Positions 16,110 through 51,378 of a DNA stretch of 64,000 bases are shown here, piece after piece. A model generated the notes under the pieces. The model was not told where the DNA came from and did not search any database. It saw nothing but the letters and a program-made list of their open reading frames with translations. Positions within the stretch are counted from its first letter, which is position 1, and each line of letters begins with the position of its first letter. The stretch is from Trypanosoma brucei. Its lineage: Eukaryota. The stretch lies in contig CP000066.1 of assembly GCA_000002445.1 (NCBI GenBank), positions 704,001-768,000 of the forward strand, in the 5' to 3' direction. The position numbers were made by a program, and so were the translations under genes.

Positions 16110-19100
16110 TCAACGGCGCACACGCCATGCCTCTATATGCTCAAACTTCTCCCACTCACAGGTCATAAACTCAGTAACCTCATCCACGTATCGATATAAG
16201 GATCTCTCCTTCTTCTCTTCTATGAGCAGTACAATGTACCGCAAACATGTTTTTGCATCTCCGATGAGACGAATACAGTTCAGCGTTTCCCTCCTCTTAA
16301 CCTCCACATCGTTATTATGGCCACTGCCTCCCACTTTTCTTCCCCCTGCTGCCTCACAGGCATCCGGCATGTTACTCTCATCCACTCGTGTGCAATTCAA
16401 CTCCTCTGGGGTAAAGGCGTAGTGTTCCACAACCTCTAGTGGCACCTCCGTGTCTAATAGCATACCGCTATTTTTAATTATTCCCGCACATTGCTGTCGT
16501 TCTTGCAAAAACGATTTATGCAACAAATCCTTGTCACAACCTTGAGCCGTAAGAGCCTGTCGCTGTGTTGCAATAAGAACAACAACGGTTTGAAGTGCTT
16601 GTTGGACGGCCTCAGCATCTTCGTGAAGCTGTTCAACCCACTCATCACATGCCTGCTTACACTGCAGAGCAGCAGGATTTGTAGACGGGTAAAATGGCGG
16701 GGGAGAGAGAATCGAATGCGATTGATTTGACCCCCTGCTATGCCTGGTATCCTCCGACTTGGGGGTTGAGGAATCGACAGCTCGACGCTTAGGTGTTGTT
16801 GCACCAACTAATATTGCCTTGGTGGGCGTTCGCTGGGAAGAAGGCGAAAAGACACGGGGGCCTTGCACACTTGCCTTCTGTAAAGAAGGCGCCACCTTTT
16901 GTTGCCGCCCTCCCGCAATGGAGTTACGTTCATCCACCTCTGGTGTCAGTCTGCCCATATCACTCAAGAATCGTTTGGCAATCGTCGAGATGGCTTGTTT
17001 GTCGTTCGCATGGCCACGGATTGGTGAAAGTTTATATGAACCTCCCCCTCGACTCACTCTCCCCCTCTCCGGCGTCCTAGTGCACGCTTCCTGTTTGGAT
17101 CGTGCAATGCTAGTGGGTTCACTTCCACATTTGCGTGTTTCCATTCTCCCACGGAGCTGCACCCATTGCCTGTGATTAAGCGATTCGTCCCGGCGGACTC
17201 CCACATGACGACACTTTTCCTCGTCGCGCTCCTCCAAAGCGCCACGGTGGGAACCCTTGCCTGCAGACTGAGGACCAACAGAAGCTCCCCTTCTTTGTGC
17301 CCAAACTTTGACTGGGGTACGGCACGCGCTGCCATCCGGCTGATCAGCCCGCCGCGGGGTTGTATTCCCCTCCTCCATCACATAAACAGTGACTTCTGCC
17401 TCGTTGTCCTCCAACTCCTCCCCCTTGTCCGGACTGCGCATCGATGGTGAATCCACAGAAACGCTTGTACTCCTCCCTGTGTTTGTGACTGCTCCATCGT
17501 ACGACTGTTGCACACTCGCCAGGCGTTCCGCCAGTACGTCCTCCAAATACTTCTTCGAGTCTATGGCGAGCTTCTTCAGCAACTCATTGTGAAGCGGTAC
17601 CCCTTTCCTGGTAGAGGCACGGCGCTGTCGTTCCTTCGTCTCTTCTTCACTTTTTCGCTGCATTTCCATGGCCCTCGTTGCACGAGACATTTTCAAACTG
17701 TCACTATAACCTGTTTTCCCACCAATCGTCACCCCACGCGTAAGTAAATGCATATAACTTCCACACTGGGAGGAGCGCCCGTCCCCTTTATGAGTAGACG
17801 TAGATGCGCCGCCTCGGCCAGTAGCAGCGCTTACAGGCTCACTACTGTCCCACGTCTTGCTGTTTTCGATTTGCGAACTCCACCCACCCCCTTGCGCGAA
17901 TGTAAGGCGGATTCCGTCAATGAATTGTAGCGAGGGGCAGAGGTTACGGAGCATGGGTCGGAAGCAGTTCTGTATACGTTCCATAACGGGGTTCCCACGC
18001 AACATCAAATGTTGTAGCCCTTTGGTGAGAGACAACGGCCGAATTGATGCCTGTGTCTCAAGTCTGTTGTACGACAAGTCGAGAGTCTCCAGTAAAATAA
18101 GATGTGCGATCCCACCCACGAACTCAATTTCGTTTCCACCCAAGAACAAGTGGGATAAGGAAAGGTTGTTCTCAAGACCCGTCATGGAGCAGATACGGTT
18201 ATGACGAGCGTTGAGAAGGGTGAGCATTCGGCACTTCTCCAAACCGCTAATCTTACGCAGCTCGTTCTCACTCACGTCCAGACGTAGGAGCGAAGGAGGC
18301 AGCGGTTCTAGGGATTTCAAGCCGTTGCGACTGAGGCAAAGGACCGTCACCGACCGAAAAGATGCACCCGCTCGGGGAGCCGTCGCTACGCGCGGGCCTC
18401 TGTCCTCAGGGCTGCTATCGGGTCCCTGAGAGCTCTTAGCCCTCACCACACTCCAAATATCATCTGTGTCGTACAGCGTGCGCAGCTTTCCAGTTGAAAC
18501 AGAATCTGTCAGATCCATGACAGATGTCAGAAGTGGACTAAGATTTTCAGTAAGATCAACACGAAACTCGTCGTCCCTGACAGAGGATGATCTATAGTGT
18601 TGCTTTTCCTTCGGTACGCTCCGGGCTGGAGTGCCTCGCACCTCGCAACTTCCGGCCCTCTTCTCACCATTACCCATACGTACACCAGCAGAGGATTGTC
18701 TCTGCAACTTATTACCACCAGCTTTGCACGTTTCTGGAGGGAGCCGGGGGGGAGTGCAACTGCCTTTCGCCTGATTCTCCCGCCCTTGTTTACTTCCCCC
18801 TCGCTTTCCACCTCGTGATGTCCCCGAGGGTAACCCCGTGGACACACGTTTCATCGGTGAGCCCGACACCAATTCATTGCATGACTCATCGCTCACAACA
18901 CAAGCATCAGTGGAGGCTGCGGGAGTCACACTACCGGAGGCACTGGATGGCCTCTCCGAGCCGAGCAACGCGTGCCGTCGCTTCTCGAGAGCCATCGAGT
19001 CAACACCACGGCATGAAGAAGCGCTCTGCGTTTGGATAGACGAAAGCGAGCAGGCACTCACAGGCTCACTACTTGGGCGGCCTCCACCAGCAGTCGTAAC

Positions 19101-19544
19101 ATCCAACTTCACAACACAGGGAGAGGATGACTGAACACGAACCTCTTCGATACGCTGGGCTGCGGCGGCTGTGATGCTATTCGCCCGAATATCCATGTAT
19201 AACAAAGGCGGAGAACAGCGCGAAACAAGGAGTGACAAGTGGGTAACGCAATTGTCCGTTAGAGAGTTTTGGTTCAGTGTTAGCGCCCAGCGGCTGATAC
19301 CGTGGACGCGAAGCATGGCAGTGGTGCCGAGCTTTATTAGAGCCTCTGCCGCTGCAATAACCTCCCTGTCTCCTAGGCCAAGGCCGTTCAGTGCAAGATG
19401 CGCTCCTGAGCCATCCAAACGTACACACTGGGCACACTTACTGGCAAATGCGGCTGCTTGAGATACACCTTGCCGACACAGTTCAACACGTAGCGAATCC
19501 CTGAAGATGGCCGTGAAGGATGACGGCGTATCGTCGCGAACCAT
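16110..19544 (-). CDS. leucine-rich repeat protein (1144 aa) with an N-terminal ribonuclease-inhibitor (RI)-like LRR block and a central SDS22-like LRR block
   Basis: ATG at 19544. The SDS22-type repeats are LxxLxLsxNxLxxIxgL, for example LCLSRNGLKSLEPLPPSLLRLDVSENELRKISGLEKCRMLTLLNARHNRICSMTGLENNLSLSHLFLGGNEIEFV and LETLDLSYNRL. The N-terminal RI-like repeats include ALTLNQNSLTDNCVTHLSLLV. Confidence 0.7.
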   Translation of the reverse strand: MVRDDTPSSFTAIFRDSLRVELCRQGVSQAAAFASKCAQCVRLDGSGAHLALNGLGLGDREVIAAAEALIKLGTTAMLRVHGISRWALTLNQNSLTDNCVTHLSLLVSRCSPPLLYMDIRANSITAAAAQRIEEVRVQSSSPCVVKLDVTTAGGGRPSSEPVSACSLSSIQTQSASSCRGVDSMALEKRRHALLGSERPSSASGSVTPAASTDACVVSDESCNELVSGSPMKRVSTGLPSGTSRGGKRGGSKQGRENQAKGSCTPPRLPPETCKAGGNKLQRQSSAGVRMGNGEKRAGSCEVRGTPARSVPKEKQHYRSSSVRDDEFRVDLTENLSPLLTSVMDLTDSVSTGKLRTLYDTDDIWSVVRAKSSQGPDSSPEDRGPRVATAPRAGASFRSVTVLCLSRNGLKSLEPLPPSLLRLDVSENELRKISGLEKCRMLTLLNARHNRICSMTGLENNLSLSHLFLGGNEIEFVGGIAHLILLETLDLSYNRLETQASIRPLSLTKGLQHLMLRGNPVMERIQNCFRPMLRNLCPSLQFIDGIRLTFAQGGGWSSQIENSKTWDSSEPVSAATGRGGASTSTHKGDGRSSQCGSYMHLLTRGVTIGGKTGYSDSLKMSRATRAMEMQRKSEEETKERQRRASTRKGVPLHNELLKKLAIDSKKYLEDVLAERLASVQQSYDGAVTNTGRSTSVSVDSPSMRSPDKGEELEDNEAEVTVYVMEEGNTTPRRADQPDGSACRTPVKVWAQRRGASVGPQSAGKGSHRGALEERDEEKCRHVGVRRDESLNHRQWVQLRGRMETRKCGSEPTSIARSKQEACTRTPERGRVSRGGGSYKLSPIRGHANDKQAISTIAKRFLSDMGRLTPEVDERNSIAGGRQQKVAPSLQKASVQGPRVFSPSSQRTPTKAILVGATTPKRRAVDSSTPKSEDTRHSRGSNQSHSILSPPPFYPSTNPAALQCKQACDEWVEQLHEDAEAVQQALQTVVVLIATQRQALTAQGCDKDLLHKSFLQERQQCAGIIKNSGMLLDTEVPLEVVEHYAFTPEELNCTRVDESNMPDACEAAGGRKVGGSGHNNDVEVKRRETLNCIRLIGDAKTCLRYIVLLIEEKKERSLYRYVDEVTEFMTCEWEKFEHIEAWRVRR

Positions 19545-20156: not shown

Positions 20157-22166
20157 CTATGAAAAGCAAACGACGTTCAGCAGGATGACAAAAAGCATGT
20201 AAGAAACACCACCACTGTCCTCCTGTACTTGCCTACGTGGCTCCGGCGAGGATAATGGCTCGTATGCGGACAGAGCCATGTAGCGCAGGCCATCCCACGA
20301 ACCCTCCTGCCTTGAGTGAGTAGGCGTCATTGCATCCAGACGAGTAAACCCAATCTTCTTTAACACCTTGTAGGCCATTCGATCCCAATCCATGGACCGA
20401 TTCTGTGTCGCTCCCGTTACCGTGTAGTGTACAGTCGGTGGAGACAACCATATGGCCCACTCTACACACGGGAAGGCACATTTCGTTGAGCGGGAATCCT
20501 CCATCGCCTTGCTTCGGTAATTCTGATCCCACATATATTGTTGCCAATCGGTTTCTCCGGGGGCCGCAACTGTCGGCTCCGCGCCGAACGGGGGCCACCT
20601 CGTGTAGGGGCCGCGCAACAGTGTTACCTTCTGCTGCCTCCATTCCTCAGCGAATGCTCGCATCACCTCCACCCAATCTTTCGTCTCCCAAGCCTCGAGC
20701 AGATCCTCCATGCCCAGGTTCGTGACAAACACATTCACCGGTTCCTGAATGTTGTCAAGGAGTTCGACTAGCGCCTTCCTAGGCGAACTCGCACGACGCT
20801 CAGTAAGGTTATAGTTTATTTTTCTATATAAACAATGTATGACAGAATTGCCCACTTTTTTCTCCAGTGACTGGCAGTTTTTGTAATATTCGTTCACAAT
20901 GGCACCGCCCGCAAACAACACTACGGTCGGTTTCCCGCTAAACATCGACATCCGCCTGCAAATCATAGGGAAAGGATCCCTCCCCTCACCCGAAACAATG
21001 CGCAACCGGCAGGTAGTTGGAACCCAAACAAGATGACTGTTTAATCCCCTAGGGTCCGTAAGCATGCTAGGATCACCATAGCAATAGCGATCACCCTTCG
21101 TGCACTGAGCTGCAAGCGGGTGCGGGGACCCCAGTGGTGTACTGGAATCCGCCCCATCAAGGAAACGCACCCACTGACCACCTTCAGAGGTGTTGTAATT
21201 CGTAGATGCATTGCAGAGAGGCGGAAGAGCAGCCGTTGCCGGTCGGGGCGCAGGCACTACCCGAATGCGTAATGGACTTCCGTATACATGCCGCTGCACG
21301 TCACAGATGCTATTATACGTAAACACACTACGGGTTGTGTCATTTCCCCACCCGCTAACGACACCAAGTGTACGAGACCCCCAAGGCACACCTGTGTTAC
21401 TGTTGAGGTGTACCATCTTCACCTCCAAAGTATAATTGCCCGGGTCGGGGACTCGGAAACGGACAATCCGCGATACAAAGCTACCCGCCTTGCTCGCGTC
21501 CAATCGGGGAGTGGGCCGTATTACCTGGGCAGCAAGCACGCGGTTCTCGTTAAAAAGACGTGCAATGAATTCAACGTCATCAATGCAGGCTTTATTTTCT
21601 TTCGACTCCAGACATGTACCACATTGTTCCACTTCAACACTTTGACTCCATCCGCCTGCAGTTACCTCCAGTATGTCACTTGCTAATGGTAGCGAGGCAC
21701 GCAACACGAAGAGATATTTGTGTTCCTCGTTGAACCAATGGGAAAGCATATAACGCCCACATGCCGGATGAGGGTCCCGAAACATTTCATGGTACGTGAT
21801 CTGAGTGTGGAAAAAGTGATGAGGGCTCTGGCTATTCACTTCGTCGTATTCAAAAACGTGCCGGTTGTACAGCTGAGAGCATGTCATTTGCCGATAATCA
21901 TCGGGTGGCTTAACCATCCAGAAGCTTGCAGGAACCTTCGTTACGTTGTACGAGAACGGCCTAATAGACAAGGTTGGCGGAAGATGAGTTGTATATTCCA
22001 AACCCTTGTCCCTTCTCCTACTCACAGAAGGTTGCGGTTCTCCTTCAAGTGGATCTGGAGGAAGACTACGGTACGTTACCAACGTGATGAAGAAGGTTGA
22101 TAGTAACAAAACCACCAACAGTGCTGTGGCATTTATCCTAAACCCCAATAACCTGCCAATCATCAC
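20157..22166 (-). CDS. type II membrane / secretory-pathway glycoprotein (669 aa), Cys-rich lumenal domain; possible PC-esterase/SGNH-like fold with a degenerate GDS motif
   Basis: ATG ATG at 22161-22166. The N-terminal signal anchor is MMIGRLLGFRINATALLVVLLLSTFFITLV. There are many N-x-S/T sites and about 20 Cys. The segment HLVWVPTTCRLR...FSGKPTVVLFAGGAIVNEYYKNC resembles the GxWVxD...LRGKxxxFVGDSLxRNQ core of PC-esterase/TBL domains, but GGA replaces the catalytic GDS. Confidence 0.55.
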   Translation of the reverse strand: MMIGRLLGFRINATALLVVLLLSTFFITLVTYRSLPPDPLEGEPQPSVSRRRDKGLEYTTHLPPTLSIRPFSYNVTKVPASFWMVKPPDDYRQMTCSQLYNRHVFEYDEVNSQSPHHFFHTQITYHEMFRDPHPACGRYMLSHWFNEEHKYLFVLRASLPLASDILEVTAGGWSQSVEVEQCGTCLESKENKACIDDVEFIARLFNENRVLAAQVIRPTPRLDASKAGSFVSRIVRFRVPDPGNYTLEVKMVHLNSNTGVPWGSRTLGVVSGWGNDTTRSVFTYNSICDVQRHVYGSPLRIRVVPAPRPATAALPPLCNASTNYNTSEGGQWVRFLDGADSSTPLGSPHPLAAQCTKGDRYCYGDPSMLTDPRGLNSHLVWVPTTCRLRIVSGEGRDPFPMICRRMSMFSGKPTVVLFAGGAIVNEYYKNCQSLEKKVGNSVIHCLYRKINYNLTERRASSPRKALVELLDNIQEPVNVFVTNLGMEDLLEAWETKDWVEVMRAFAEEWRQQKVTLLRGPYTRWPPFGAEPTVAAPGETDWQQYMWDQNYRSKAMEDSRSTKCAFPCVEWAIWLSPPTVHYTVTGATQNRSMDWDRMAYKVLKKIGFTRLDAMTPTHSRQEGSWDGLRYMALSAYEPLSSPEPRRQVQEDSGGVSYMLFVILLNVVCFS

Positions 22167-22538
22167 CTCTTTGGTACCAAAATCAACCTTCCTCCACTAG
22201 AGGGAGGCTTCAACGAAGTATTCAAGGAGTCGACGCCAAAAAAAAAAAAAAAAGAAGAGGAAAACAGAGGAAAGGGGGGTTGAAAGTTACCCTTGAAGGT
22301 GGACGCACAACACAAATACACATACAGCAAAGCAGTGGCAAAAACAATAATAAAGTACAATGGTGGTGCATCGCACGACCTTAATGTTTCGAGGGGGGAC
22401 AAGGTTGGTACAACAGGACCCACTCAGATGTACAAATACCTGCTGCGTCGATTAAACGGTTACGAATACAAGGAAAAAAAATACAAGAAAATGACTGAAC
22501 CTAAAAATCCCCCCCTTCCGTTCTGTGAAGAATCGATC

Positions 22539-25500
22539 CTACGCAGCCAATTTGCCCTCGACGAGAAGGGCGTAGAGTTGCTGGTGTGCCTGCGCACCTG
22601 CAGCTTGAACAACGTCAGTGGCGGTTTGAAGCAGTAGACGGCGTCGCATAAGTGCACTTCGCCTCTCGTACAGGAGTTCTAAAAGCACCGGAACGACTGG
22701 ATGTGTTGGAAGGCCCAACTTCACAAGATGGCTGGCAAGCTCAACAATGAGAAGCAGATCCGCTTTCCAACTGCTAGTGGCCGTTTTCTCGGCACCCTCC
22801 CCCGCACTTTCGGATGTGATAACAGCGTATAAGATGTCAGCGCACTTCTCTACAAGCGTGACGTCATGCGATGGGTGGGTTCGAATACTGGATGAAAGGA
22901 AAACGTGGATATCCACGGGCGTGAGTGTTGACACGTCACTAGAGATTCCACCCAGTTCCCTCAGGGCAGATGCGGCGCTGGTTAATAGCAACGTCGTCGC
23001 TTTCGTGGCTGGCTCCGTATGCACTAAGGAAAAGAACTTCAGCAGCGATATGTACTGCAGCAGCTTGAAGAACACACCCGGTTGCTTCGCTAGCTCCACA
23101 GTACGCGAAGTCATCATAGAGATGACCCCATCTTCCAAGTCAACGTGGGCTACAGTAAAAGCCTCAGCTAGGGTTACGAGATCACTGATGCTGCAGTCGT
23201 CCACAATTTCCTTGAACCGCTTCCCCACCGCATCAAACAATGTCTTGGAGCGCACGCCGCACTGAACGAAGAGTCGTGTCAGCTCAGCAAATGCCTGGGG
23301 AGGGGCTTGGGGAAACAAAACCGAAGCGGCATGATCCGTCATGCAACGAAGAATATTATACTCGGTCGAGTTTTTCCTTGCGATGAGCTGCAGAACGGCC
23401 ATCATGGTTGACATGGAAAGCGCCGTGTGATGCTCGGCCATGTTCTGCAGAACCAAATGACACGTCGGGTCATTTGGAAATGCCTCTGTGAGACACTGCA
23501 AAACAAGCACGGCGTTGCCTGCCACGAGTGAAAGTGAAGCAGGGTCGCTCTGAAGAAGGTGACGGACCAATCCTAAAAACACCGGTTGAGCAGCCGTAAG
23601 GCACGCAGTTTGAACGCTCTTGTCCCATGCAGCGTTCACGCCACACATCACCAAACGGACGGCGAGCGGCAGGGAAAACTTCAGTTTCACATCAGCCACT
23701 CGGGCGAGTAGCACGCCAAAAAGATACTGATGAGTTATTTGCGCAGTTGCATAGCTCTCAATACAATCCACCACCTCCTCTGCGCTAAACAACTGCCGTG
23801 TTTGGATGGTGCGAAGGATATACGCCTTCATTACGCGATCACGTAACTCCCCGTAGACATCCTTATCCAACTGCGAAAAGCCCTTTAAGACAAGCGGTAC
23901 ATCCGACGATGGGCACTGCTGACGCGCCCGCAGAACCGAACCTGCCAAAGAGGAAGGAAGGTCAACCAAAAAGGCAAGATCCTCCGCTGGGAGGGAACCC
24001 CCAAGTCGCTGCAGCTTCGTTGCGATGCGAACCACAATCCCAGCTTCACCAGGCGTCAGTATGTGACCAGAGTTAGTAACACGCCGTAATATCGCTGCGT
24101 AGGAGAACTGACCACCGTCGTCAAGTTCACACAAAGTCTGCAGCGCTGACGTGGTCTCCTGAAGGGAAAAAGAAGAACTTAATGAAGCCGCTTCCTCCGC
24201 GAGAAGGTTACGCAGCGACCGTACAGTTTCGGTGTCGGTGGGTACATGATAGTTCACAAAACTTCTCAACACTGCCGACACATCACCGGCAAGCAGCAGA
24301 GGACTAACAGCCATCACCATCTCGAGATACAATCCCGTGAGGTTCTCCTTCCGTAGCTGGCATACAGCCGCAGCGGAGGTGAGTAATCGGGCCGCTATCT
24401 TGCTAAGGTGGCGACGCCTCGCCCCATCCTCTGTCTCTGTTGCACATCGCTCCTCCATTACTGCCACTCTCACTGCCGTGGCCAACTGCGACAGCAGCTG
24501 GGGCGAAAGATGGTGAATTGTGTGGGGTGTGCACATAACCACCGTCATCTCGCTAAGCGCCTGAAGCCTAAGCGCATCTTTGGAACGTTCTTCTTCACTA
24601 TTCTGCTGCTGCAGGAACCGCGTGAGCGCAGGGTCCAAAACATCGGTACGAAAGGCCTGAAGCTCTGCTGGCTCCGACTCGATCGTGAACTCGGAGACAA
24701 GGCGGAACAGAAGGTTTACGAGGGAAAGCACGTGAGAAGGGTTTTGTGTCATGACAGCATTGCTACCCCCTCGTCGGATGGCTGCCGCGACCGGCTTCAA
24801 GTGAGCTGCGACAACATCATTAACAACAATACTGCAGTACCGCTGCCATGAGGATCCTGGTAAACGTACTCGGGCGAGGTCACGCTGCTTGGCGCCTACG
24901 TGTGTAACGAGTTCATCCATCCTATTCACCGTCTCGAATAGCGAGGGGCCGTCACCTTCAGCGCCACCGCTACAAAGCAACGATTTAACAACAGTAGAAT
25001 GGAGGCCAACAAGCTGCTTGGCCACAGTTGCATCCATCCCACAGGACGCCGCGTACACAGTAAAGTTATGAACGCCCTGAAGGAGCTTCTTAGCTGCCTC
25101 ACACTCCGCAGTACCCATTGCACTAGACCTTTTAGCCCAGCTTAGCTGCCGGAGCGCACATTCCACAACACGCGGAACAAATAATGCCGTAACCTCCGAA
25201 AGTGAGCTTTCGACATCCGGTAAGGTGGCATTCGATGACTCCCGCTGTGTGAGAGGTTGGTAGCAACCAGCAAGCTGATACCGTTCTACGAACATGTCAA
25301 TCAGTACCGTTAAACCGTCCGAGAGGTAGTAATAAGAGCCTTCCCGCTCCAATAGTGCCAGCATTGATACAAGGTGGGCACTCAGCTTCTTTTCCTCTCC
25401 TCGCACAAGCAGTTCCACAGAAGTAGAGAAAGCCAAGTGCAGAACTGTTTCTAGCGGAACAGAGTTAGCCTTTGTAACATTCGCAGCAGCACCGCCGCGC

Positions 25501-27566
25501 TGTCTTTGCCGCTTGGAAGTGTTCGGTGCCTCGCCGTCACCATTTCGCCCCCGCTCAAGAAGATCTCGAATGGCCTTTGGCTCCTCAAGGGTTTCCAGCG
25601 GTGTCATCCCCGCCCTTGTGTCAGCCCGAATGCGAGCCTCGATTAATGAAGCACACTCAGATGTTAACATGGTAGATATCCTCGCGGGCAGTGGATCAAG
25701 AGCAAACGAACGCGAAAATAAGGAGGCAGCGTAAAGTACTTCAAGCACCTCCACGGCGCTGTGCCCCACGCATAAGCCGCTACTCAAGACGGCCTCGGGA
25801 CAATATCCAGCGGCAAAGAGCCCAAAGGCCACCTTCGCCCGCCGGGACCGTGGCTCTGCGTGATGTATAAGGGCGGGCCCCGAGGGATTGTCTCCAGAAA
25901 AAACTCCCGATGAATCACATGCGCCATTTCTAGTAAATTCCCTCCTCTCCTTAGTTAGTTTACACGAAAGCTTCTTCACCGCGGATTCGTCTGCTCGTTC
26001 GCAAAAGAGTGCGGCAGCTGTAACGACGGCCGCCCGAGTGGAATCGCAGAGGTCCTGCGATGGCAATGATTGAACCACACGGGCAACATCGCTCTTGCAG
26101 AGAACATCAATGAACATCAGGGGTCGTGTACCCACACCTAAACAGAGGTGCTGAAAGCTGTCTGTCATATCATGTTTCAGTCGATCACGCACAGGTGGCG
26201 GCAACGCTGCACTTGCCCCATTCAAGACAAATAAACCATTCAATAGATCGAAAGCGAGCATGTGTATGTCTCCAACGCTTATGCGTTGTAACTTTTCTGT
26301 CACGGCACTGTTAACACGTTTGATCGCAGCAGACTGTATTTGAGACGTGCAATCCTCCCACGATTTTTTCGTACGCGCCGAAATATGGTCATGATCATTT
26401 GCAATAGAGATGGCAAGAAAAAGAACCGCCAAGTCCACCACAACATCGCTAAGGGAATGTGGTTCATCGATACGGTTGGCCTCCACCACACCACTGGCAG
26501 CAGGAACAACGAGCTCATCAACCAGGCGCAGTGTAACGTCCCCAATCCATTTGCTATTCTCACCATCAGCATTTTTTTTCGCGGCAACTTTCCTCTTCTT
26601 TTCGACCCCACCAGTGGGAGGAGCCTTGGTGGACGGTTTGGCCTCCAGCTGATTTTGCCGCAACTCCAAGGACACCCAAAGTACCGCCTTCTTAATTGCA
26701 GCTGCAGCATCACGCTGTTGCTCTCTCGCTCTCGCCCCCGTAACCTCACCCTGCCACGTAATTACACAGTCAAGCAATTTCTCCATAATTTCCTGGTACA
26801 CGACAGTATTACAAAATGTACTCGTCCTATATACGCGCAAAAAGGCCATAAGTGCTTGTAACTGCTCCACGTTCCTTGCAGTTTCGGCAGCACCGTGAAC
26901 AATGACTCCCTCACGGGTGAGACATTTCTCTTCACATGCCCTCAATATGAGGTGAAGGGACGGGTACCTCTCCCGATATTTCACCGCACGGGCAATGCAA
27001 GCTCCGATTGTGGCTATTTTAATTGTACCTGGACCTTTAACACCTGTAGAGCCACGTGCGGGAGGGGTCACCACTTTACTCTCCACCTGCTGAGCCTCGC
27101 ACCCCTTCTCCGAATCCTCGAGTGAAGCATCAGCGCAGACCGCATTCCATTCCTCCACCACGAGGCGTGTGTCAATCTTCACCTTTTGTATTCGCACTTC
27201 ACTCGATGCGTCAGAACTACCAGCAGCCCCAACTTGTGACTCTTCCTTCGCCTTCCCACCCGATGAATTCCTCGGGCGACGTGATGAGACCCGCTTGTTA
27301 ACTGCAGGCACCGCCGTCGCAACCCCACTGGAAAGCTCCCCCGCCCTGTCAGCGAGCTCATCAACTATGGAAATGGTTTTCTCCTTTATCCCTTCTTCCA
27401 CCACCACTGGTTCATCTGATGGAGGCTGGCCAGTAGATTTGGGCTTGCGTCTTGGAGCGAATAGACGTACGGAGGTGCTAAAGAATCTGGCATTACTGTA
27501 AGGAAAACTTAGCCCACTTGTAAACTTGAAAAACACACGCGAACGACTACAAACACGCAATAGCAT
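22539..27566 (-). CDS. very large hypothetical protein (about 1675 aa), helical-repeat-like, with a mitochondrial-presequence-like N-terminus
   Basis: The ORF track starts at a TTG (27767) and reads through the PPT and a CA-repeat. The first ATG is at 27566 (cat 27564-27566): MLLRVCSRSRVFFKFTSGLSFPYSNARFFSTSVRLFAPRRKP, which is basic and hydroxylated with no acidic residues. The coding-strand PPT is at 27696-27812. Confidence 0.6.
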   Translation of the reverse strand: MLLRVCSRSRVFFKFTSGLSFPYSNARFFSTSVRLFAPRRKPKSTGQPPSDEPVVVEEGIKEKTISIVDELADRAGELSSGVATAVPAVNKRVSSRRPRNSSGGKAKEESQVGAAGSSDASSEVRIQKVKIDTRLVVEEWNAVCADASLEDSEKGCEAQQVESKVVTPPARGSTGVKGPGTIKIATIGACIARAVKYRERYPSLHLILRACEEKCLTREGVIVHGAAETARNVEQLQALMAFLRVYRTSTFCNTVVYQEIMEKLLDCVITWQGEVTGARAREQQRDAAAAIKKAVLWVSLELRQNQLEAKPSTKAPPTGGVEKKRKVAAKKNADGENSKWIGDVTLRLVDELVVPAASGVVEANRIDEPHSLSDVVVDLAVLFLAISIANDHDHISARTKKSWEDCTSQIQSAAIKRVNSAVTEKLQRISVGDIHMLAFDLLNGLFVLNGASAALPPPVRDRLKHDMTDSFQHLCLGVGTRPLMFIDVLCKSDVARVVQSLPSQDLCDSTRAAVVTAAALFCERADESAVKKLSCKLTKERREFTRNGACDSSGVFSGDNPSGPALIHHAEPRSRRAKVAFGLFAAGYCPEAVLSSGLCVGHSAVEVLEVLYAASLFSRSFALDPLPARISTMLTSECASLIEARIRADTRAGMTPLETLEEPKAIRDLLERGRNGDGEAPNTSKRQRQRGGAAANVTKANSVPLETVLHLAFSTSVELLVRGEEKKLSAHLVSMLALLEREGSYYYLSDGLTVLIDMFVERYQLAGCYQPLTQRESSNATLPDVESSLSEVTALFVPRVVECALRQLSWAKRSSAMGTAECEAAKKLLQGVHNFTVYAASCGMDATVAKQLVGLHSTVVKSLLCSGGAEGDGPSLFETVNRMDELVTHVGAKQRDLARVRLPGSSWQRYCSIVVNDVVAAHLKPVAAAIRRGGSNAVMTQNPSHVLSLVNLLFRLVSEFTIESEPAELQAFRTDVLDPALTRFLQQQNSEEERSKDALRLQALSEMTVVMCTPHTIHHLSPQLLSQLATAVRVAVMEERCATETEDGARRRHLSKIAARLLTSAAAVCQLRKENLTGLYLEMVMAVSPLLLAGDVSAVLRSFVNYHVPTDTETVRSLRNLLAEEAASLSSSFSLQETTSALQTLCELDDGGQFSYAAILRRVTNSGHILTPGEAGIVVRIATKLQRLGGSLPAEDLAFLVDLPSSLAGSVLRARQQCPSSDVPLVLKGFSQLDKDVYGELRDRVMKAYILRTIQTRQLFSAEEVVDCIESYATAQITHQYLFGVLLARVADVKLKFSLPLAVRLVMCGVNAAWDKSVQTACLTAAQPVFLGLVRHLLQSDPASLSLVAGNAVLVLQCLTEAFPNDPTCHLVLQNMAEHHTALSMSTMMAVLQLIARKNSTEYNILRCMTDHAASVLFPQAPPQAFAELTRLFVQCGVRSKTLFDAVGKRFKEIVDDCSISDLVTLAEAFTVAHVDLEDGVISMMTSRTVELAKQPGVFFKLLQYISLLKFFSLVHTEPATKATTLLLTSAASALRELGGISSDVSTLTPVDIHVFLSSSIRTHPSHDVTLVEKCADILYAVITSESAGEGAEKTATSSWKADLLLIVELASHLVKLGLPTHPVVPVLLELLYERRSALMRRRLLLQTATDVVQAAGAQAHQQLYALLVEGKLAA

Positions 27567-27695
27567 GACTTCCACAAGTGTGCCGCGTGTCTGTGAGGGT
27601 GATTCCCCTTTTCCTTTTGTTTCAGTTCTTACACACACACACACACCGCCCCTCTTCTCCTGTTTCGGTACTGGTAATAAATTTATGTGCACACG

Positions 27696-27812
27696 CAGGA
27701 GGAAAAGGAGGAACAAATGCAAGCAAAAAGAAAGAGAAACAAGAAAGTAGGAGAAAAAACTGAACAATCACCACCTAAATGGTGCCCCTGCCAAAAAAAA
27801 AAAAAAAGAAAC
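27696..27812 (-). promoter_or_regulatory. polypyrimidine tract for the 22539-27566 gene
   Basis: Plus-strand purine-rich block including A15. It lies within the spurious TTG-initiated N-terminal extension of the ORF-track ORF. Confidence 0.55.
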
Positions 27813-39763: not shown

Positions 39764-40286
39764 GTCTCCTCACAAGCGGGGGTCTCTCTGAGAAACTTAT
39801 CCTCTTTTAAAGAAAAAAAAAAAAGAAACAATTAGCAAGTAGTGTTATGGAAACAGCAAAAAAAAAAGTGGGGGAGAGATGGTGAAGACAATGGTACAAG
39901 TACAGAAATACACCCGTACACGTTATACACTCATATATTTTTATTCACTTATTTATTTACATTTGACAATGCGGAATCGCTGCAGAGAACGTGTAAGAAG
40001 GCATGTGATGGAACCCCCATCCATATCATCACTGTTATTTCTTCTGATACAAAAGAAAAAAAAAAGAAAAAAGAAAAGAAGGAAGAAAAGAGAATTTCAG
40101 CCTCCATTCCAATCCCAGAGAAATACAGTGGAGAGGTTAAATAGTAGAAGAGAAGTAATAACAAGCAATGCGAATGGGGAAGTCTCGCAGAGAGCGCGAG
40201 TGAAAGGTTCTAACATGACAAAAGAAGAAAAAAAGAAAGAAAAGAAAAAAGTAGTACATCCACAATTACATCGGAGTTCATCCATT

Positions 40287-41255
40287 CTAATCGGTCCACG
40301 TCATGCCGTCGACCGGAGTTTCTTCACACACTTCAAGTGCGCTGGTGGGAGCCCACGTGCCTCGTTTAAATGTACCCGTTTGAGCCATTTTCAGCGCTGG
40401 GTAATGCATAGATGCCGCTTCATCACAAGGCCTGTTCTTTTTGTTGAAGTGTCCCTCATAATAAACCCCATCAGGGAATATCCACTGGCCGTGTGTAAAG
40501 ACGCCATCATTCCACATGCCGCGATATTCGTTTCCGCCTACAAAGTGATATGTCCCATAACCATGCTTGCGTCCATTCTTCCAGTTGCCCGAGTAAATGT
40601 CACCATTGAGGTAAAAAAACATCCCGCGACCCTCACGCTTGTTCTCGAGGAATTCTCCCTTATACACCGTACCGTCTTTGTTCTTCATTAGTCCTCGCCC
40701 AACACGCTTACCGCGCACGTAGTCTCCATGATAGCATGGATGAAACCCGTATTCAATAATATATGAAATGATGTGACAGCCTATCTTATATCTGTCCGCT
40801 ACAGCCTTCACAAAGTTCTCACCAGCCACCACATCACCGAGCTTCTGCAGCTCCTTCTCCACAATTCTATCGCACTCACTTTTCCCCAAACTCACAAAAA
40901 TGTACCGCCCCCTTCCATGTTTCTTCCCTTCAAAAAACTCCCCATCATAGCGGTCACCATTAGCATAAATTGCCTTTCCACTTCCCGTGCGCTGTTGGAA
41001 CTCATCACGAAGCCCGGCATATATTCCCAGCGTGCATACGGAACGGACAAAGTTGCGGTCATAATTCATACCTTCCCCTTCCATTTCTTCACAAAAGGTA
41101 TCAGCCCATGCATCCACATCCGCCTCACGCTCATCCTCAGGCTTTTGCAGGTATGATTCCTCAAATTTCAACCATACAAACATCTCTGCAGCTTTAAACC
41201 CCGTCGTCTCATCAACCTCATCGTAGTTTATCTCCACATTCTTTTGCTTCGACAT
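40287..41255 (-). CDS. MORN-repeat protein (322 aa)
   Basis: At least six consecutive MORN units (YxGxFxxGkkHGxGxxxF), for example YDGEFFEGKKHGRGRYIF, YKGEFLENKREGRGMFFY, YSGNWKNGRKHGYGTYHF and YRGMWNDGVFTHGQWIF. ATG at 41255. Confidence 0.85.
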   Translation of the reverse strand: MSKQKNVEINYDEVDETTGFKAAEMFVWLKFEESYLQKPEDEREADVDAWADTFCEEMEGEGMNYDRNFVRSVCTLGIYAGLRDEFQQRTGSGKAIYANGDRYDGEFFEGKKHGRGRYIFVSLGKSECDRIVEKELQKLGDVVAGENFVKAVADRYKIGCHIISYIIEYGFHPCYHGDYVRGKRVGRGLMKNKDGTVYKGEFLENKREGRGMFFYLNGDIYSGNWKNGRKHGYGTYHFVGGNEYRGMWNDGVFTHGQWIFPDGVYYEGHFNKKNRPCDEAASMHYPALKMAQTGTFKRGTWAPTSALEVCEETPVDGMTWTD

Positions 41256-47811: not shown

Positions 47812-48280
47812 TTTATGTTGGTTATCTGCCGCACTCTTTTTTTTTTCAAAAAAAAAAAGTAACAACTATAATATTAAGGAGTATTATTAATATTACTACT
47901 ACTGTGAAATATTTAATGTATTCTGGTAAAACGTCGTCACTCACTTCATGAAAAGAACAAAACAAAAAAAACGGAAAAGGAACAAAATGTGAGCAAATGA
48001 ACGAATGAATGAGACAAGCGTAAAATAAACACGTTGCACAAACAGAGAGAACATGGAATCCAAAAATGTTTTTTTTCTGCTTTTATTTTTCTCTCTCTTT
48101 GCCGCGGAACCAATTTAAAAAAAAAAGTAGAATAGAAAAAACAGGAAAAGAACACGGAAAGAAAAAAAAAGACACAAACCTGAGAAAAAAAAAAAGAAAA
48201 AAAGAGAAAAGAGAAAGGGAAAAATAAATATATAAAAATCACAATGAAGTGGCGCCTGAATAACAACTGATAGCAATCCT

Positions 48281-48309
48281 TAATAATAATAATAATAATA
48301 ATAATAATT
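48281..48309. repeat. (TAA)9 microsatellite
   Basis: taataataataataataataataat. Confidence 0.9.
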
Positions 48310-48517
48310 AATATCATCACTATCATAAGAGTAATAAGAAAGGATGCTGTGAGGACACGTTTTGTACAAGAAGGGAGAAACATAAACATAAACACGTGAA
48401 GGAAAATAATAACAACAATGAAGGAGTACCAACGTCAAAACATGGAGGCAACACACAATTCGTTTCAGATGCTTGCCGTGAAGATAAACAATTTTTTTTT
48501 AAATGGGTATATATTTG

Positions 48518-48548
<31 letters not shown>

Positions 48549-48958
48549 TTCGTACGCACAAATTGTGTTTCAATACGGATAATAAGAAAGAAAAAAATGA
48601 AGGAAAAAACCAATGACACTAATGTTATTTATATAAAGTACTTTCTCATATAATTTTTTATTTATAAATAATGGGGTATAAATATATAAATATATAAATA
48701 TGAGTATGAAAAGGGAGAAAAAAAAAAGAGGAGATGGATATGGATATGGAAGTGAGTGGAACTGTGAAAAGGTGGATGAAGTTGTTATGTTACGGGGCTT
48801 TTGCTTTTTCTCTATTTTTTTTTTTCGTTTTTGGTTTTGCTTTTGCTTTTTGTAGAAATTTGGTTCGAGTTTCTTTTCCTTTGCTTTTTTTTCTCGATGC
48901 TTTCTTTTTTCTTTCTTTTCTTTCTATTCCCTATTCCTTATATACTCTCCTCTCTTTC

Positions 48959-48989
<31 letters not shown>

Positions 48990-50954: not shown

Positions 50955-51010
50955 TCATTTCAATTTCAATTTCAATTTTAATTTCAATTTTAATTTTAAT
51001 TTTAATTTTT
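50955..51010. repeat. (TTTCAA/TTTTAA)n hexamer microsatellite; left arm of an inverted pair
   Basis: catttcaatttcaatttcaattttaatttcaattttaattttaattttaatttt. Confidence 0.9.
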
Positions 51011-51289
51011 TTGTGAGTGTTTTGTGTGTGATTTTTTCGATTTCATTTAATTTTTTGTTTGTTTGTTTGATTGTTTATTTTAATCATTTATACAAATATG
51101 TTTTACTCAAATATTTTCCGTAGGAGTTTTTTTGCTATCCTCAATTTGTGTGTGTGTGTGTTTTTTTCTTTTCTTTTTTCTTTTCTTTTTAGGTGTTGTC
51201 CTCTCCTTTTGGTTTCTTTTCGTTGAATGATGTTTAGTTTCGCCACTTTCACACCTGTGATGACTGAAAGAAATAATTAATGTCACAAC

Positions 51290-51378
51290 AATTGAATGAA
51301 ATCAAAAAATTAAAAAAATTGAAATTGAAATGAAATTGAAATGAAATGAAGGAAATTGAAAAATCAAATGAAATGAAA
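51290..51378. repeat. (TTGAAA/TGAAAT)n hexamer microsatellite; right arm, the reverse complement of the 50955-51010 repeat
   Basis: aaaaaattaaaaaaattgaaattgaaatgaaattgaaatgaaatgaaggaaattgaaaaatcaaatgaaatgaaag. The reverse complement of the left arm is aaaattaaaattaaaattgaaattaaaattgaaattgaaattgaaa. Confidence 0.85.

What the first reader, a model, noticed from the sequence alone, without database searches (positions are those of the whole stretch)
20157..22166. Cys-rich type II membrane glycoprotein with a PC-esterase/SGNH-like core in which the catalytic GDS is replaced by GGA
The protein has an N-terminal signal anchor, many N-glycosylation sequons and about 20 cysteines. That fits a Golgi/ER-lumenal or surface protein. 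The block ...HLVWVPTTCRLR...FSGKPTVVLFAGGAIVNEYYKNC... has the spacing and hydrophobic pattern of the GxWVxD...LRGKxxxFVGDSLxRNQ core of PC-esterase/TBL/Cas1-type O-acyl-esterases, but the nucleophile Ser is absent. That would make it a pseudo-esterase or carbohydrate-binding relative. No such family is widely described in trypanosomes as far as I recall.
Basis: inference. Interest (0 to 1): 0.5.

Follow-up and report, generated by a model that had tools for sequence, protein, structure and literature searches.

The report
Dead glycan acetyl-transferase relative in T. brucei
This Trypanosoma brucei gene (Tb927.3.2800, so far 'hypothetical') encodes a membrane-anchored glycoprotein with the fold of the sugar-acetylating PC-esterase enzymes (plant XOAT1, human NXPE1/CASD1), but uniquely among 38 aligned relatives it has lost all the key catalytic residues while keeping the rest of the protein intact, so it is most likely a retained 'pseudo-enzyme'.

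Summary
The ORF is real: window 20157-22163 (-), 668 aa, identical to T. brucei TREU927 Tb927.3.2800. It has an N-terminal signal anchor, 8 sequons and 16 Cys (not ~20). No curated Pfam or PDB sequence match exists for it.

All 37 relatives keep GDS and DGxH. Only T. brucei has GGA, N424 and DGLR. It deviates at 4 of 28 near-invariant columns, all catalytic. The gene is the syntenic orthologue of intact genes in T. vivax and T. melophagium. It shows no overall rate acceleration, and the ORF is intact in seven T. brucei-group sequences.

This is a lineage-specific pseudo-O-acyltransferase of a previously uncurated PC-esterase branch. Its present function is unknown.

The parts
20157..22163 (-). 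Complete CDS of Tb927.3.2800 (668 codons plus TAG stop at 20157-20159). The true start is the ATG at 22163, one codon inside the GTG listed by the ORF finder.
   Evidence: exact match to XP_843873.1; seven T. brucei-group variants are all 668 aa
22071..22130 (-). N-terminal signal anchor (aa 12-31, ATALLVVLLLSTFFITLVTY), preceded by the basic residues R4 and R9. Predicted type II orientation with the bulk of the protein lumenal or extracellular.
   Evidence: hydropathy 2.39; single helix 2-32 in the model; similar N-terminal hydrophobic segments in most full-length relatives. Orientation is inferred.
21729..21995 (-). Membrane-proximal helical region (aa 57-145) with family-conserved Cys/Pro motifs (C95, P131-x-P133-x-C135-G-R-Y).
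   Evidence: no fold assignment obtained
21255..21716 (-). Beta-sandwich domain of filamin/Ig type (aa 150-303), including the conserved DPGxYxLEVKxVH motif.
20928..21254 (-). Cys-rich lobe preceding the catalytic core (aa 304-412). Contains C317, GGQWVR 328-333, C354, C361, LTD 368-370, N375, HLVWVPTTC 377-385 and C402. Its last part aligns with the XOAT1 W184..C191 segment.
   Evidence: Equivalence to the plant PMR5N lobe is a resemblance and was not tested.
20274..20927 (-). SGNH/PC-esterase alpha/beta/alpha core (aa 413-630): strands 413-419, 442-448, 476-481, 514-518, 566-573 and 607-609, alternating with helices.
20901..20909 (-). Degenerate block I: G419-G420-A421 (GGC GGT GCC), where 37/37 relatives have G-D-S. 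A421 occupies the nucleophile position (XOAT1 Ser216).
20892..20894 (-). N424 (AAC) at Ser+3, the position of the conserved Arg of GDSxxR (XOAT1 Arg219, the oxyanion-hole residue needed for transfer). T. vivax has Ala here.
20283..20294 (-). Degenerate block V: D624-G-L-R627 (GAT GGC CTG CGC), where 37/37 relatives have D-G-x-H. The triad Asp is kept and the general-base His is lost.
   Evidence: Lipase_GDSL profile end (positions 142-202 of 208) matches this region in relatives and in a consensus sequence
20160..20213 (-). C-terminal hydrophobic helix (aa 651-668, GGVSYMLFVILLNVVCFS) carrying the family-wide motif GGVSxM..x..LN..C. Most likely the last helix of the domain, not a generic GPI signal.
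   Evidence: G651 invariant; G652, V653, N663 and C666 >=90% conserved across 38 sequences. Only moderately hydrophobic and followed by polar extensions in distant members. pLDDT about 90. C402 and C666 are lost together in P0057.
22238..22279 (-). Polypyrimidine tract upstream of the ATG; presumptive trans-splicing signal for this gene within a unidirectional gene cluster.
   Evidence: read directly from the sequence. All ORFs >=250 aa that do not overlap another are on the minus strand. Function is inferred from general trypanosome biology.

Best explanation
Tb927.3.2800 encodes a type II membrane glycoprotein of the secretory pathway or cell surface. Its lumenal part is built like a glycan O-acyltransferase of the PC-esterase branch of the SGNH superfamily: stem, filamin-type Ig domain, Cys-rich lobe, SGNH alpha/beta/alpha core and terminal helix.

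In its relatives the core carries the complete machinery known from XOAT1, CASD1 and NXPE1. A Ser in GDS is acylated, a His in DxxH (oriented by the Asp) acts as general base, and an Arg three residues after the Ser stabilises the oxyanion. The acyl group is then passed to a sugar hydroxyl.

In the T. brucei lineage four of these residues were replaced (D420G, S421A, R424N, H627R) by at least six nucleotide changes. The protein therefore cannot form the acyl-enzyme intermediate and is catalytically dead. The rest of the protein has stayed under constraint: all other near-invariant residues, 14 cysteines invariant among trypanosome orthologues, the full-length ORF and a normal substitution rate.

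It is therefore most likely a retained pseudo-enzyme that uses the preserved fold and cleft for a non-catalytic role, such as binding a glycan or a partner protein.

Shown: the fold, the family, the residue losses, their lineage specificity, synteny and retained constraint. Inferred: membrane topology, loss of activity (by analogy with mutants of relatives) and any binding role.
For: Identity: exact match to Tb927.3.2800.

Family: 57 representatives at E<1e-3, from kinetoplastids, diplonemids, an amoebozoan and marine samples.

Sequence register: the family GDSxxR aligns with XOAT1 G214-D215-S216..R219. NXPE4_C, PC-Esterase and Lipase_GDSL give sub-threshold hits in the correct register.

Residue loss: 37/37 relatives have GDS and DGxH. 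T. brucei deviates at 4 of 28 columns that are >=90% conserved, all four in the catalytic motifs, and no other member changes D420, S421 or H627.

Codons: >=6 nucleotide changes in the four codons.

Mutational precedent: XOAT1 S216A, H465A and D462A abolish transferase and esterase activity, and R219A abolishes transfer (10.1101/2020.01.16.909127). NXPE1 S355A abolishes activity (PMC12216134).

Orthology: conserved Brix - NIF - ~1700-aa gene - [this gene] - LRR order in T. brucei, T. vivax and T. melophagium.

Constraint: seven T. brucei-group variants are all 668 aa with identical GGA and R627. The Tajima relative-rate test against T. vivax is not significant over the whole protein. dN to T. 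melophagium is 0.497 for T. brucei and 0.493 for T. vivax, within the range of the neighbouring genes, 0.10-0.64.
Against: - No experimental data on expression, localisation or activity were found.
- Within the T. brucei group the only DNA comparison shows 8 non-synonymous and 5 synonymous differences (roughly pN/pS 0.5, my estimate). This is weak constraint measured with low power.
- The esterase domain shows a mild excess of T. brucei-specific changes (38 v 18 with one outgroup, p 0.008; not significant with others).
- No orthologue was retrieved from T. congolense, T. cruzi or Leishmania, so the gene seems dispensable in several lineages.
- No Pfam model reaches its curated threshold on the window protein or on any relative's esterase domain.
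- Model coordinates could not be inspected, so the spatial positions of A421 and R627 rest on sequence alignment and secondary-structure order, not on a superposition.
Confidence: 0.74

Rival explanations
1. The gene is a non-functional relic. After loss of catalysis it is drifting towards pseudogenisation in T. brucei and has simply not yet acquired a stop codon.
For: - Four catalytic residues are lost.
- The intraspecific comparison gives 8 non-synonymous and 5 synonymous differences.
- The esterase domain shows a mild excess of T. brucei-specific substitutions.
- The gene is apparently absent from T. congolense, T. cruzi and Leishmania in a 5.8-billion-protein search, which suggests dispensability.
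Against: - The 668-codon ORF is intact in all seven T. brucei-group sequences.
- 24 of 24 non-catalytic near-invariant residues are retained. All four deviations fall among the roughly nine motif columns, which has a chance of about 0.006 if hits were random (my calculation).
- The four catalytic codons carry >=6 nucleotide changes, so inactivation is not recent. Yet overall dN equals that of the catalytically intact T. vivax orthologue, and the whole-protein relative-rate test is not significant.
Confidence: 0.17
2. The protein is still an active acyl-esterase or acyl-transferase that uses non-canonical residues in place of the Ser/His/Arg.
For: D624, G419, E425 and the overall cleft-forming scaffold are conserved. 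Ser-His dyads and variant oxyanion holes occur in the SGNH superfamily (stated in the NXPE1 preprint).
Against: There is no Ser, Cys or Thr in GGAIVNE to replace the nucleophile. Single substitutions of the Ser or the His abolish activity in XOAT1, and the Ser-to-Ala substitution abolishes it in NXPE1. Here Ser, His and the oxyanion Arg are all missing together, uniquely among 38 sequences.
Confidence: 0.03
3. It is chiefly a GPI-anchored surface coat protein, as the T. theileri orthologues are annotated. The N-terminal segment would be a cleaved signal peptide and the C-terminal hydrophobic stretch a GPI-addition signal. The esterase-like fold would then be incidental.
For: Source annotation 'putative GPI-anchored surface protein' for P0003 and P0006. 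In Trypanosoma the last 15 residues are strongly hydrophobic (KD 2.2-2.7) and end the protein. Small residues (S650, G651, G652) precede them.
Against: The 'signal' has a sequence motif (GGVSxM...LN..C) conserved from trypanosomes to an amoebozoan. In distant members it is only moderately hydrophobic (KD 0.7-1.5) and is followed by up to 14 polar residues. There is no hydrophilic spacer between the candidate omega site and the hydrophobic stretch. C666 is >=90% conserved and is lost together with C402 in P0057, which suggests a disulfide. The N-terminal hydrophobic core is about 19 residues long, typical of a signal anchor. This reading also does not conflict with the fold assignment.
Confidence: 0.06

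Closest known systems
Plant TBL/DUF231 xylan O-acetyltransferase XOAT1 (ESKIMO1/TBL29; PDB 6CCI), PC-esterase family PF13839
   Different: No Pfam PC-Esterase or PMR5N hit reaches threshold. The trypanosome family has an extra filamin-type Ig domain and an N-terminal helical region. Block V reads WDGxH rather than DCxHWC. The T. brucei protein lacks the Ser, Arg and His that are essential in XOAT1.
Animal NXPE proteins (NXPE1-4; 'neurexophilin and PC-esterase domain'; Pfam NXPE4_C PF24536). NXPE1 is a sialic acid O-acetyltransferase.
   Different: All hits are below the curated cut-off (20 v 27 bits) and cover only the first ~50-75 profile positions. The N-terminal beta domain is filamin-like here, not neurexophilin-like. 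Distribution is protist, not animal. The T. brucei protein lacks the residue equivalent to S355, whose Ala mutant is inactive.
CASD1 / fungal Cas1p N-terminal SGNH domain (sialate or capsule O-acetyltransferase)
   Same: Lumenal SGNH-like domain with a GDS Ser and a DxxH Asp/His triad, working through a covalent acetyl-enzyme (PMC4510713, listed; residues as quoted).
   Different: CASD1 has a C-terminal multipass acyl-transferase-3 membrane domain, which is absent here.
Generic bacterial and eukaryotic SGNH/GDSL hydrolases and peptidoglycan O-acetyltransferases (PatB, OatA C-terminal domain, Ape1)
   Different: The window protein lacks the block I Ser and the block V His. It is much larger, multi-domain, disulfide-rich and membrane-anchored.
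OSK domain of Drosophila Oskar (PDB 5A4A), an SGNH-fold protein without a catalytic triad
   Different: It is cytoplasmic, binds RNA and has an unrelated context. No specific relationship is implied.

Membership tests
PC-esterase family (Pfam PF13839; TBL/PMR5, Cas1p/CASD1, NXPE/FAM55, PCED1) | Scores above the curated Pfam gathering threshold | tested here: not met
   Window protein: no Pfam hit even at E<=10. Relatives: PC-Esterase 13-14 bits against a cut-off of 27.
PC-esterase family (Pfam PF13839; TBL/PMR5, Cas1p/CASD1, NXPE/FAM55, PCED1) | SGNH-like alpha/beta/alpha fold most similar to a solved PC-esterase | tested here: met
PC-esterase family (Pfam PF13839; TBL/PMR5, Cas1p/CASD1, NXPE/FAM55, PCED1) | GDS motif with the nucleophilic Ser after the first core strand | tested here: not met
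   The window has G419-G420-A421. 37/37 relatives have GDS, aligned to XOAT1 G214-D215-S216.
PC-esterase family (Pfam PF13839; TBL/PMR5, Cas1p/CASD1, NXPE/FAM55, PCED1) | Arg three residues after the Ser (GDSxxR; XOAT1 Arg219, oxyanion hole and transfer) | tested here: not met
   The window has N424. Arg is >=90% conserved in the family, with Ala in T. vivax.
PC-esterase family (Pfam PF13839; TBL/PMR5, Cas1p/CASD1, NXPE/FAM55, PCED1) | DxxH motif near the C-terminus (triad Asp and His) | tested here: not met
   The window has D624-G-L-R627. 37/37 relatives have D-G-x-H. The register is supported by Lipase_GDSL profile-end matches in relatives.
PC-esterase family (Pfam PF13839; TBL/PMR5, Cas1p/CASD1, NXPE/FAM55, PCED1) | Secretory-pathway membrane protein with a lumenal, disulfide-rich catalytic domain | tested here: inconclusive
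   An N-terminal hydrophobic anchor, 7 lumenal sequons and 16 Cys (14 invariant among trypanosome orthologues) are consistent. Localisation is not testable here.
PC-esterase family (Pfam PF13839; TBL/PMR5, Cas1p/CASD1, NXPE/FAM55, PCED1) | O-acyl transferase or esterase activity on a glycan | not testable with these tools
   Needs biochemistry. Predicted absent in T. brucei and present in its orthologues.
NXPE family (Pfam NXPE4_C PF24536 plus Neurexophilin PF06312) | NXPE4_C domain above the curated threshold | tested here: not met
   Best 20.3 bits (E 4.5e-4) in relative P0056 and 20.1 bits for the family consensus, against a cut-off of 27. No hit for the window protein.
NXPE family (Pfam NXPE4_C PF24536 plus Neurexophilin PF06312) | Neurexophilin-type N-terminal domain | tested here: not met
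   No Neurexophilin hit in any of 38 members. The beta-sandwich matches filamin repeats instead.
NXPE family (Pfam NXPE4_C PF24536 plus Neurexophilin PF06312) | Architecture: transmembrane helix, beta-sandwich domain, C-terminal esterase domain | tested here: met
   Order of elements in the model compared with the NXPE1 description.
Canonical SGNH/GDSL hydrolases (PF00657, PF13472) | Blocks I (GDS), III (GxN) and V (DxxH) with catalytic Ser and His | tested here: not met
   Block I Ser and block V His are replaced. N482 in TNLG may be a block III Asn, but its alignment is unreliable in distant members. Only sub-threshold Lipase_GDSL hits occur, and only in relatives.
Filamin/ABP280 repeat (PF00630), for aa 150-303 only | Ig-like beta-sandwich matching the filamin repeat profile or structure | tested here: met
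GPI-anchored surface proteins (annotation of the T. theileri orthologues) | C-terminal GPI-addition signal: omega site, hydrophilic spacer, non-conserved hydrophobic tail that ends the protein | tested here: inconclusive
   A hydrophobic C-terminus is present in Trypanosoma. However, it lacks a spacer, carries a motif conserved across phyla, and is internal and less hydrophobic in distant members. No dedicated GPI predictor was available.

The most novel reading that the evidence does not exclude
African trypanosomes dismantled a glycan O-acetyltransferase in steps. The ancestral enzyme (GDSxxR plus DxxH, as in T. theileri, T. melophagium and T. grayi) first lost the transfer-specific oxyanion Arg; T. 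vivax has R424A, and the equivalent XOAT1 R219A mutant is esterase-only. It then lost Asp, Ser and His in the T. brucei lineage. The full scaffold was kept as a lectin-like receptor or regulatory subunit that recognises (O-acetylated) glycans in the secretory pathway or on the parasite surface. This would be the first PC-esterase-fold pseudo-enzyme with a biological role, and a pointer to an undescribed glycan O-acylation system in kinetoplastids and diplonemids.
Probability: 0.25. Interest if true: 0.65.

Novelty: new variant of a known kind. Interest (0 to 1): 0.45.

Why it matters
Tb927.3.2800 is a 'hypothetical protein, conserved' with no Pfam domain, and no paper in the searchable library mentions it.

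Assigning it to the PC-esterase/SGNH superfamily has two consequences. First, it defines a previously uncurated protist branch (filamin-Ig plus PC-esterase) found in kinetoplastids, diplonemids, an amoebozoan and marine metagenome sequences of unidentified origin. Second, it predicts that trypanosomes such as T. vivax, T. theileri and T. grayi carry out an undescribed O-acylation or de-acylation of a glycan in the secretory pathway. The animal and plant relatives (NXPE1, CASD1, XOAT1) acetylate sialic acids and cell-wall polysaccharides and influence host-microbe interactions.

The T. brucei protein is a clean natural experiment. Every catalytic residue is removed and everything else is kept, in a syntenic orthologue. 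That makes it a tractable model for how enzymes of this fold are repurposed. It also cautions against transferring an enzymatic annotation by fold alone.

Practically, the work also suggests that the 'GPI-anchored surface protein' annotation of the T. theileri orthologues is doubtful.

Tried and rejected
1. Direct Pfam and PDB sequence searches with the window protein, and with the six-sequence trypanosome alignment, found nothing useful.

2. The first AlphaFold run, on the six-sequence alignment, gave pLDDT 48.7 and was not used for fold search.

3. A second homologous-protein run with the 38-sequence alignment returned only the same six proteins. The word index did not reach the distant members.

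4. The third homologous-protein run, seeded with a 57-aa XOAT1 fragment to collect full-length TBL proteins for a whole-domain profile-profile test, returned only 45-100-aa exon fragments. hhalign could therefore test only the GDS block (P 3e-4, probability 40%). Block V and the C-terminal helix were not tested that way.

6. dN/dS between species could not be computed because dS is saturated. Only dN and relative-rate tests were usable.

7. Model coordinates are not exposed, so active-site geometry and the packing of the C-terminal helix could not be measured.

9. Rfam and tandem-repeat scans of the window found nothing bearing on this gene.
Full report
**What is there.** The finding's coordinates hold an uninterrupted minus-strand ORF, 20157..22166. 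The ORF finder's GTG is followed immediately by an ATG at 22163. The 668-aa product from that ATG is an exact match to XP_843873.1, 'hypothetical protein Tb927.3.2800' of Trypanosoma brucei brucei TREU927. It is identical in T. equiperdum and differs at five residues in T. b. gambiense. The window is therefore T. brucei chromosome 3.

The protein has the following features:
- An N-terminal hydrophobic segment at residues 12-30 (Kyte-Doolittle 2.39), preceded by two arginines.
- Eight N-x-S/T sequons, seven of them after the anchor.

The quoted block is present, with GGA at residues 419-421 (window 20901-20909). A polypyrimidine tract lies upstream (22238-22279). All non-overlapping ORFs of at least 250 aa in the window are on the same strand, as expected for a trypanosome polycistronic unit.

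**Curated libraries.** The protein has no Pfam match even at E<=10 and no sequence match in the PDB. No paper in the searchable library mentions the gene ID. No relevant paper combines PC-esterase with Trypanosoma, and none combines SGNH, T. brucei and Golgi.

**The family.** The word-indexed search found only trypanosome orthologues: T. vivax, T. melophagium, T. theileri (two) and T. grayi, at 43-49% identity. No hit came from T. congolense, T. cruzi or Leishmania.

An exhaustive HMM search with the trypanosome alignment found 57 cluster representatives at E<1e-3, 22 of them at E<1e-30. The named ones come from:
- the kinetoplastid Papus ankaliazontas;
- the diplonemids Namystynia karyoxenos and Artemidia motanka;
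- the amoebozoan Luapelamoeba hula;
- TARA and other metagenomes.

I aligned 38 of them (alignment A2).

**Fold.** With only six sequences AlphaFold2 gave pLDDT 48.7. With A2 it gave pLDDT 80.6 and pTM 0.83. The model shows, in order:
- a long N-terminal helix (2-32) and a disordered stem;
- a helical region (57-145);
- a beta-sandwich (150-303);
- a Cys-rich, mostly irregular lobe (304-412);
- a regular alternating beta/alpha domain (strands 413-419, 442-448, 476-481, 514-518, 566-573, 607-609);
- a confident terminal helix (652-667).

**Sequence-level corroboration.**
- The A2 profile hits XOAT1 in the PDB at E 0.0023. It aligns the family consensus 'yvWvPytCryrlf...ClrrknigslllvGDSvvREy' with XOAT1 182-238, 'WRWQPRDCSLPKF...LRNKR-MMFVGDSLNRNQW'. 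The family G-D-S therefore falls on G214-D215-S216, and the Arg at Ser+3 falls on Arg219.
- A local hhalign against TBL exon fragments reproduces this register (P 3e-4).
- Scanning all 38 members against Pfam gives NXPE4_C in nine (best E 4.5e-4), Filamin in seven (best 5.8e-7; P0050 at 30.7 bits exceeds the curated 26.9), Lipase_GDSL in two and PC-Esterase in two.
- A plurality consensus of the family hits NXPE4_C at 5.2e-4 over the start of that profile. A consensus of the distant members hits the last 60 positions of Lipase_GDSL over the region that ends in WDGLH.

Apart from the single Filamin hit in P0050, none of these reaches a curated threshold. The family is therefore a divergent, uncurated branch of the superfamily, not a formal Pfam member.

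**The catalytic residues.** In A2, G419, E425, D624 and G625 are invariant, and D420, S421 and H627 are at least 90% conserved. The motif table shows that all 37 other sequences have G-D-S and D-G-x-H. Only the T. brucei protein reads G-G-A and D-G-L-R.

A leave-one-out count found 28 columns in which at least 90% of the other sequences agree. T. brucei deviates at exactly four of them: D420G, S421A, R424N and H627R. It keeps the other 24. No other member changes D420, S421 or H627. If four deviations fell at random among the 28 columns, the chance that all lie in the roughly nine columns of the two motifs is about 0.006 (my calculation).

At the DNA level:

| Species | GDS codons | Ser+3 codon | DxxH His codon |
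|---|---|---|---|
| T. brucei | GGC GGT GCC | AAC | CGC |
| T. vivax | GGT GAC AGC | GCG | CAC |
| T. melophagium | GGG GAT AGT | AGG | CAT |

That is at least six nucleotide changes in four codons. All seven T. brucei-group protein variants in the database carry GGA and R627, so this is not a sequencing error.

**Why these residues matter.**
- In XOAT1, S216A, H465A and D462A each abolish both transferase and esterase activity. Arg219 forms the oxyanion hole, and R219A abolishes transfer while leaving esterase activity (10.1101/2020.01.16.909127).
- In human NXPE1 the GDS serine mutant S355A is inactive (PMC12216134). Ser355 and His529 superimpose on Ser94 and His273 of CASD1 (10.64898/2026.05.20.726592).

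By analogy, a protein lacking the Ser, the His and the Arg cannot form the acyl-enzyme intermediate. This step is inference, not measurement.

**Orthology and timing.** The gene order Brix (364 aa) - NIF phosphatase - ~1700-aa protein - [this gene] - LRR protein - ~1100-aa protein is the same in the window, in T. vivax and in T. melophagium. The flanking proteins are 54% and 45% identical between T. brucei and T. vivax, against 44-47% for this gene. Tb927.3.2800 is thus the positional orthologue of genes with an intact triad. The loss occurred on the T. brucei lineage after its split from T. vivax.

T. vivax itself has Ala at the Arg position. That hints at a stepwise loss, but this is speculative.

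**Pseudo-enzyme or decaying relic?** Evidence for retention:
- The ORF is full-length in seven variants.
- 24 of 24 non-catalytic near-invariant residues, and 14 cysteines invariant among trypanosome orthologues, are kept.
- Tajima relative-rate tests against T. vivax are not significant over the whole protein (for example 73 v 90 and 76 v 85 lineage-specific changes).
- dN to T. melophagium is 0.497 for T. brucei and 0.493 for T. vivax, inside the 0.10-0.64 range of the four neighbouring genes.
- The catalytic codons have accumulated several changes each, so inactivation is not recent. A neutrally drifting 2-kb ORF would be expected to have acquired stop codons over that time (my argument, not a computed test).

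Evidence for relaxation:
- The esterase domain shows a mild excess of T. brucei-specific changes (43 v 35, 40 v 24, 38 v 18, 29 v 15, depending on outgroup; p 0.008-0.37).
- One intraspecific comparison has 8 non-synonymous and 5 synonymous differences.
- Several trypanosomatid lineages seem to lack the gene.

I put about three-quarters of the probability on a retained pseudo-enzyme and about one-sixth on a relic.

**The C-terminal helix.** The T. theileri orthologues are annotated 'putative GPI-anchored surface protein'. This presumably reflects an N-terminal hydrophobic segment plus a hydrophobic C-terminus. Several observations argue against a generic GPI signal:
- The C-terminal element carries a motif (GGVSxM...LN..C) conserved from trypanosomes to an amoebozoan. 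G651 is invariant, and G652, V653, N663 and C666 are at least 90% conserved.
- In distant members it is only moderately hydrophobic (KD 0.7-1.5) and is followed by up to 14 polar residues.
- No hydrophilic spacer separates it from the candidate omega site.
- The one sequence that lacks C666 also lacks C402, which suggests a disulfide.
- AlphaFold models it confidently, at pLDDT about 90.

I read it as the terminal helix of the PC-esterase domain. From memory, TBL proteins end with a comparable '...WN..L...L' helix after DxxH; I did not test that. In Trypanosoma the helix is more hydrophobic (KD 2.2-2.7), so a membrane-associated role there cannot be excluded.

**Comparison with known families.** It works like (or, for T. 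brucei, no longer works like) the PC-esterase O-acyltransferases.
- Structurally it is closest to XOAT1.
- In architecture it is closest to animal NXPE proteins: a transmembrane helix, a beta-sandwich domain and a PC-esterase domain. The sandwich here is filamin-type, not neurexophilin-type.
- The paper that defined the PC-esterase family already noted fusions to filamin-like Ig domains in some subfamilies. It does not mention kinetoplastids (PMC2824669).

Formal membership fails on curated thresholds. For the T. brucei protein it also fails on three sequence hallmarks: the GDS Ser, the Ser+3 Arg and the DxxH His. The fold criterion is met. I therefore call it a new variant of a known kind: a catalytically dead member of a divergent protist branch of the PC-esterase/SGNH superfamily.

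**Limits.**
- Model coordinates could not be inspected, so active-site geometry rests on alignment.
- AFDB libraries were unavailable.
- No full-length TBL or NXPE sequences could be retrieved for a whole-domain profile-profile test.
- dS is saturated between species.
- No T. congolense-group sequence was available to date the substitutions.
- There are no expression, localisation or activity data.

Noticed in passing
L004:10001-16627 (T. melophagium JAJSEB010000018.1): At the syntenic position T. melophagium carries three near-identical tandem copies of the gene. Copies 1 and 3 have intact GDS and DGLH. Copy 2, as assembled, loses the reading frame after about residue 540 (stops appear in frame 1), although it was called as a 654-aa product.
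   Followed up: partly
L002:10001-12004 (T. vivax orthologue P0014), residue aligned to window aa 424: T. vivax keeps GDS and DGLH but has Ala in place of the conserved Arg at Ser+3. The equivalent XOAT1 R219A mutant loses transferase activity but keeps esterase activity. The T. vivax protein may therefore already be functionally altered, which suggests stepwise degeneration in salivarian trypanosomes.
   Followed up: partly
window 47866-54483: A gap of about 6.6 kb without any ORF >=250 aa lies inside a same-strand gene cluster. GC falls to 26-29% at 48-52 kb, and the region is filled with short AT-rich and polypyrimidine/polypurine simple repeats. No Rfam family matches and no long-period tandem array is present.
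   Followed up: partly
window 1-64000: Base composition changes along the window: about 50-54% GC up to about 30 kb, about 40% at 38-48 kb, then the AT-rich trough, then 45-49%. All non-overlapping ORFs >=250 aa are on the minus strand. The only plus-strand one (39879-40691) overlaps a minus-strand ORF.
   Followed up: no
P0003, P0006 (T. theileri) annotations; window 20160-20213: The public annotation 'putative GPI-anchored surface protein' for the T. theileri orthologues probably derives from the hydrophobic C-terminal helix. That helix is a family-wide conserved element and is unlikely to be a cleaved GPI signal.
   Followed up: partly
one search hit list (whole-database search): No orthologue was retrieved from T. 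congolense, T. cruzi, T. rangeli or Leishmania, although more distant kinetoplastids and diplonemids have the family. T. theileri has two divergent paralogues; P0003 groups with T. melophagium and P0006 with T. grayi. This suggests an old duplication and patchy loss.
   Followed up: no
alignment A2, sequence P0057 (columns of window aa 402 and 666): C402 and C666, each >=90% conserved, are both replaced in the same single sequence (to K and L). This is a hint that they form a disulfide tying the terminal helix to the Cys-rich lobe.
   Followed up: no
window 16110-19544 (-) and 22539-27767 (-): The flanking genes are a 1144-aa leucine-rich-repeat protein (LRR_4/LRR_8 near threshold) and a protein of about 1600-1700 aa with no Pfam domain. 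Both are conserved and syntenic in T. vivax (45% and 54% identity). The ORF finder's TTG start for the latter lies well upstream of the region that aligns with the T. vivax orthologue.
   Followed up: partly
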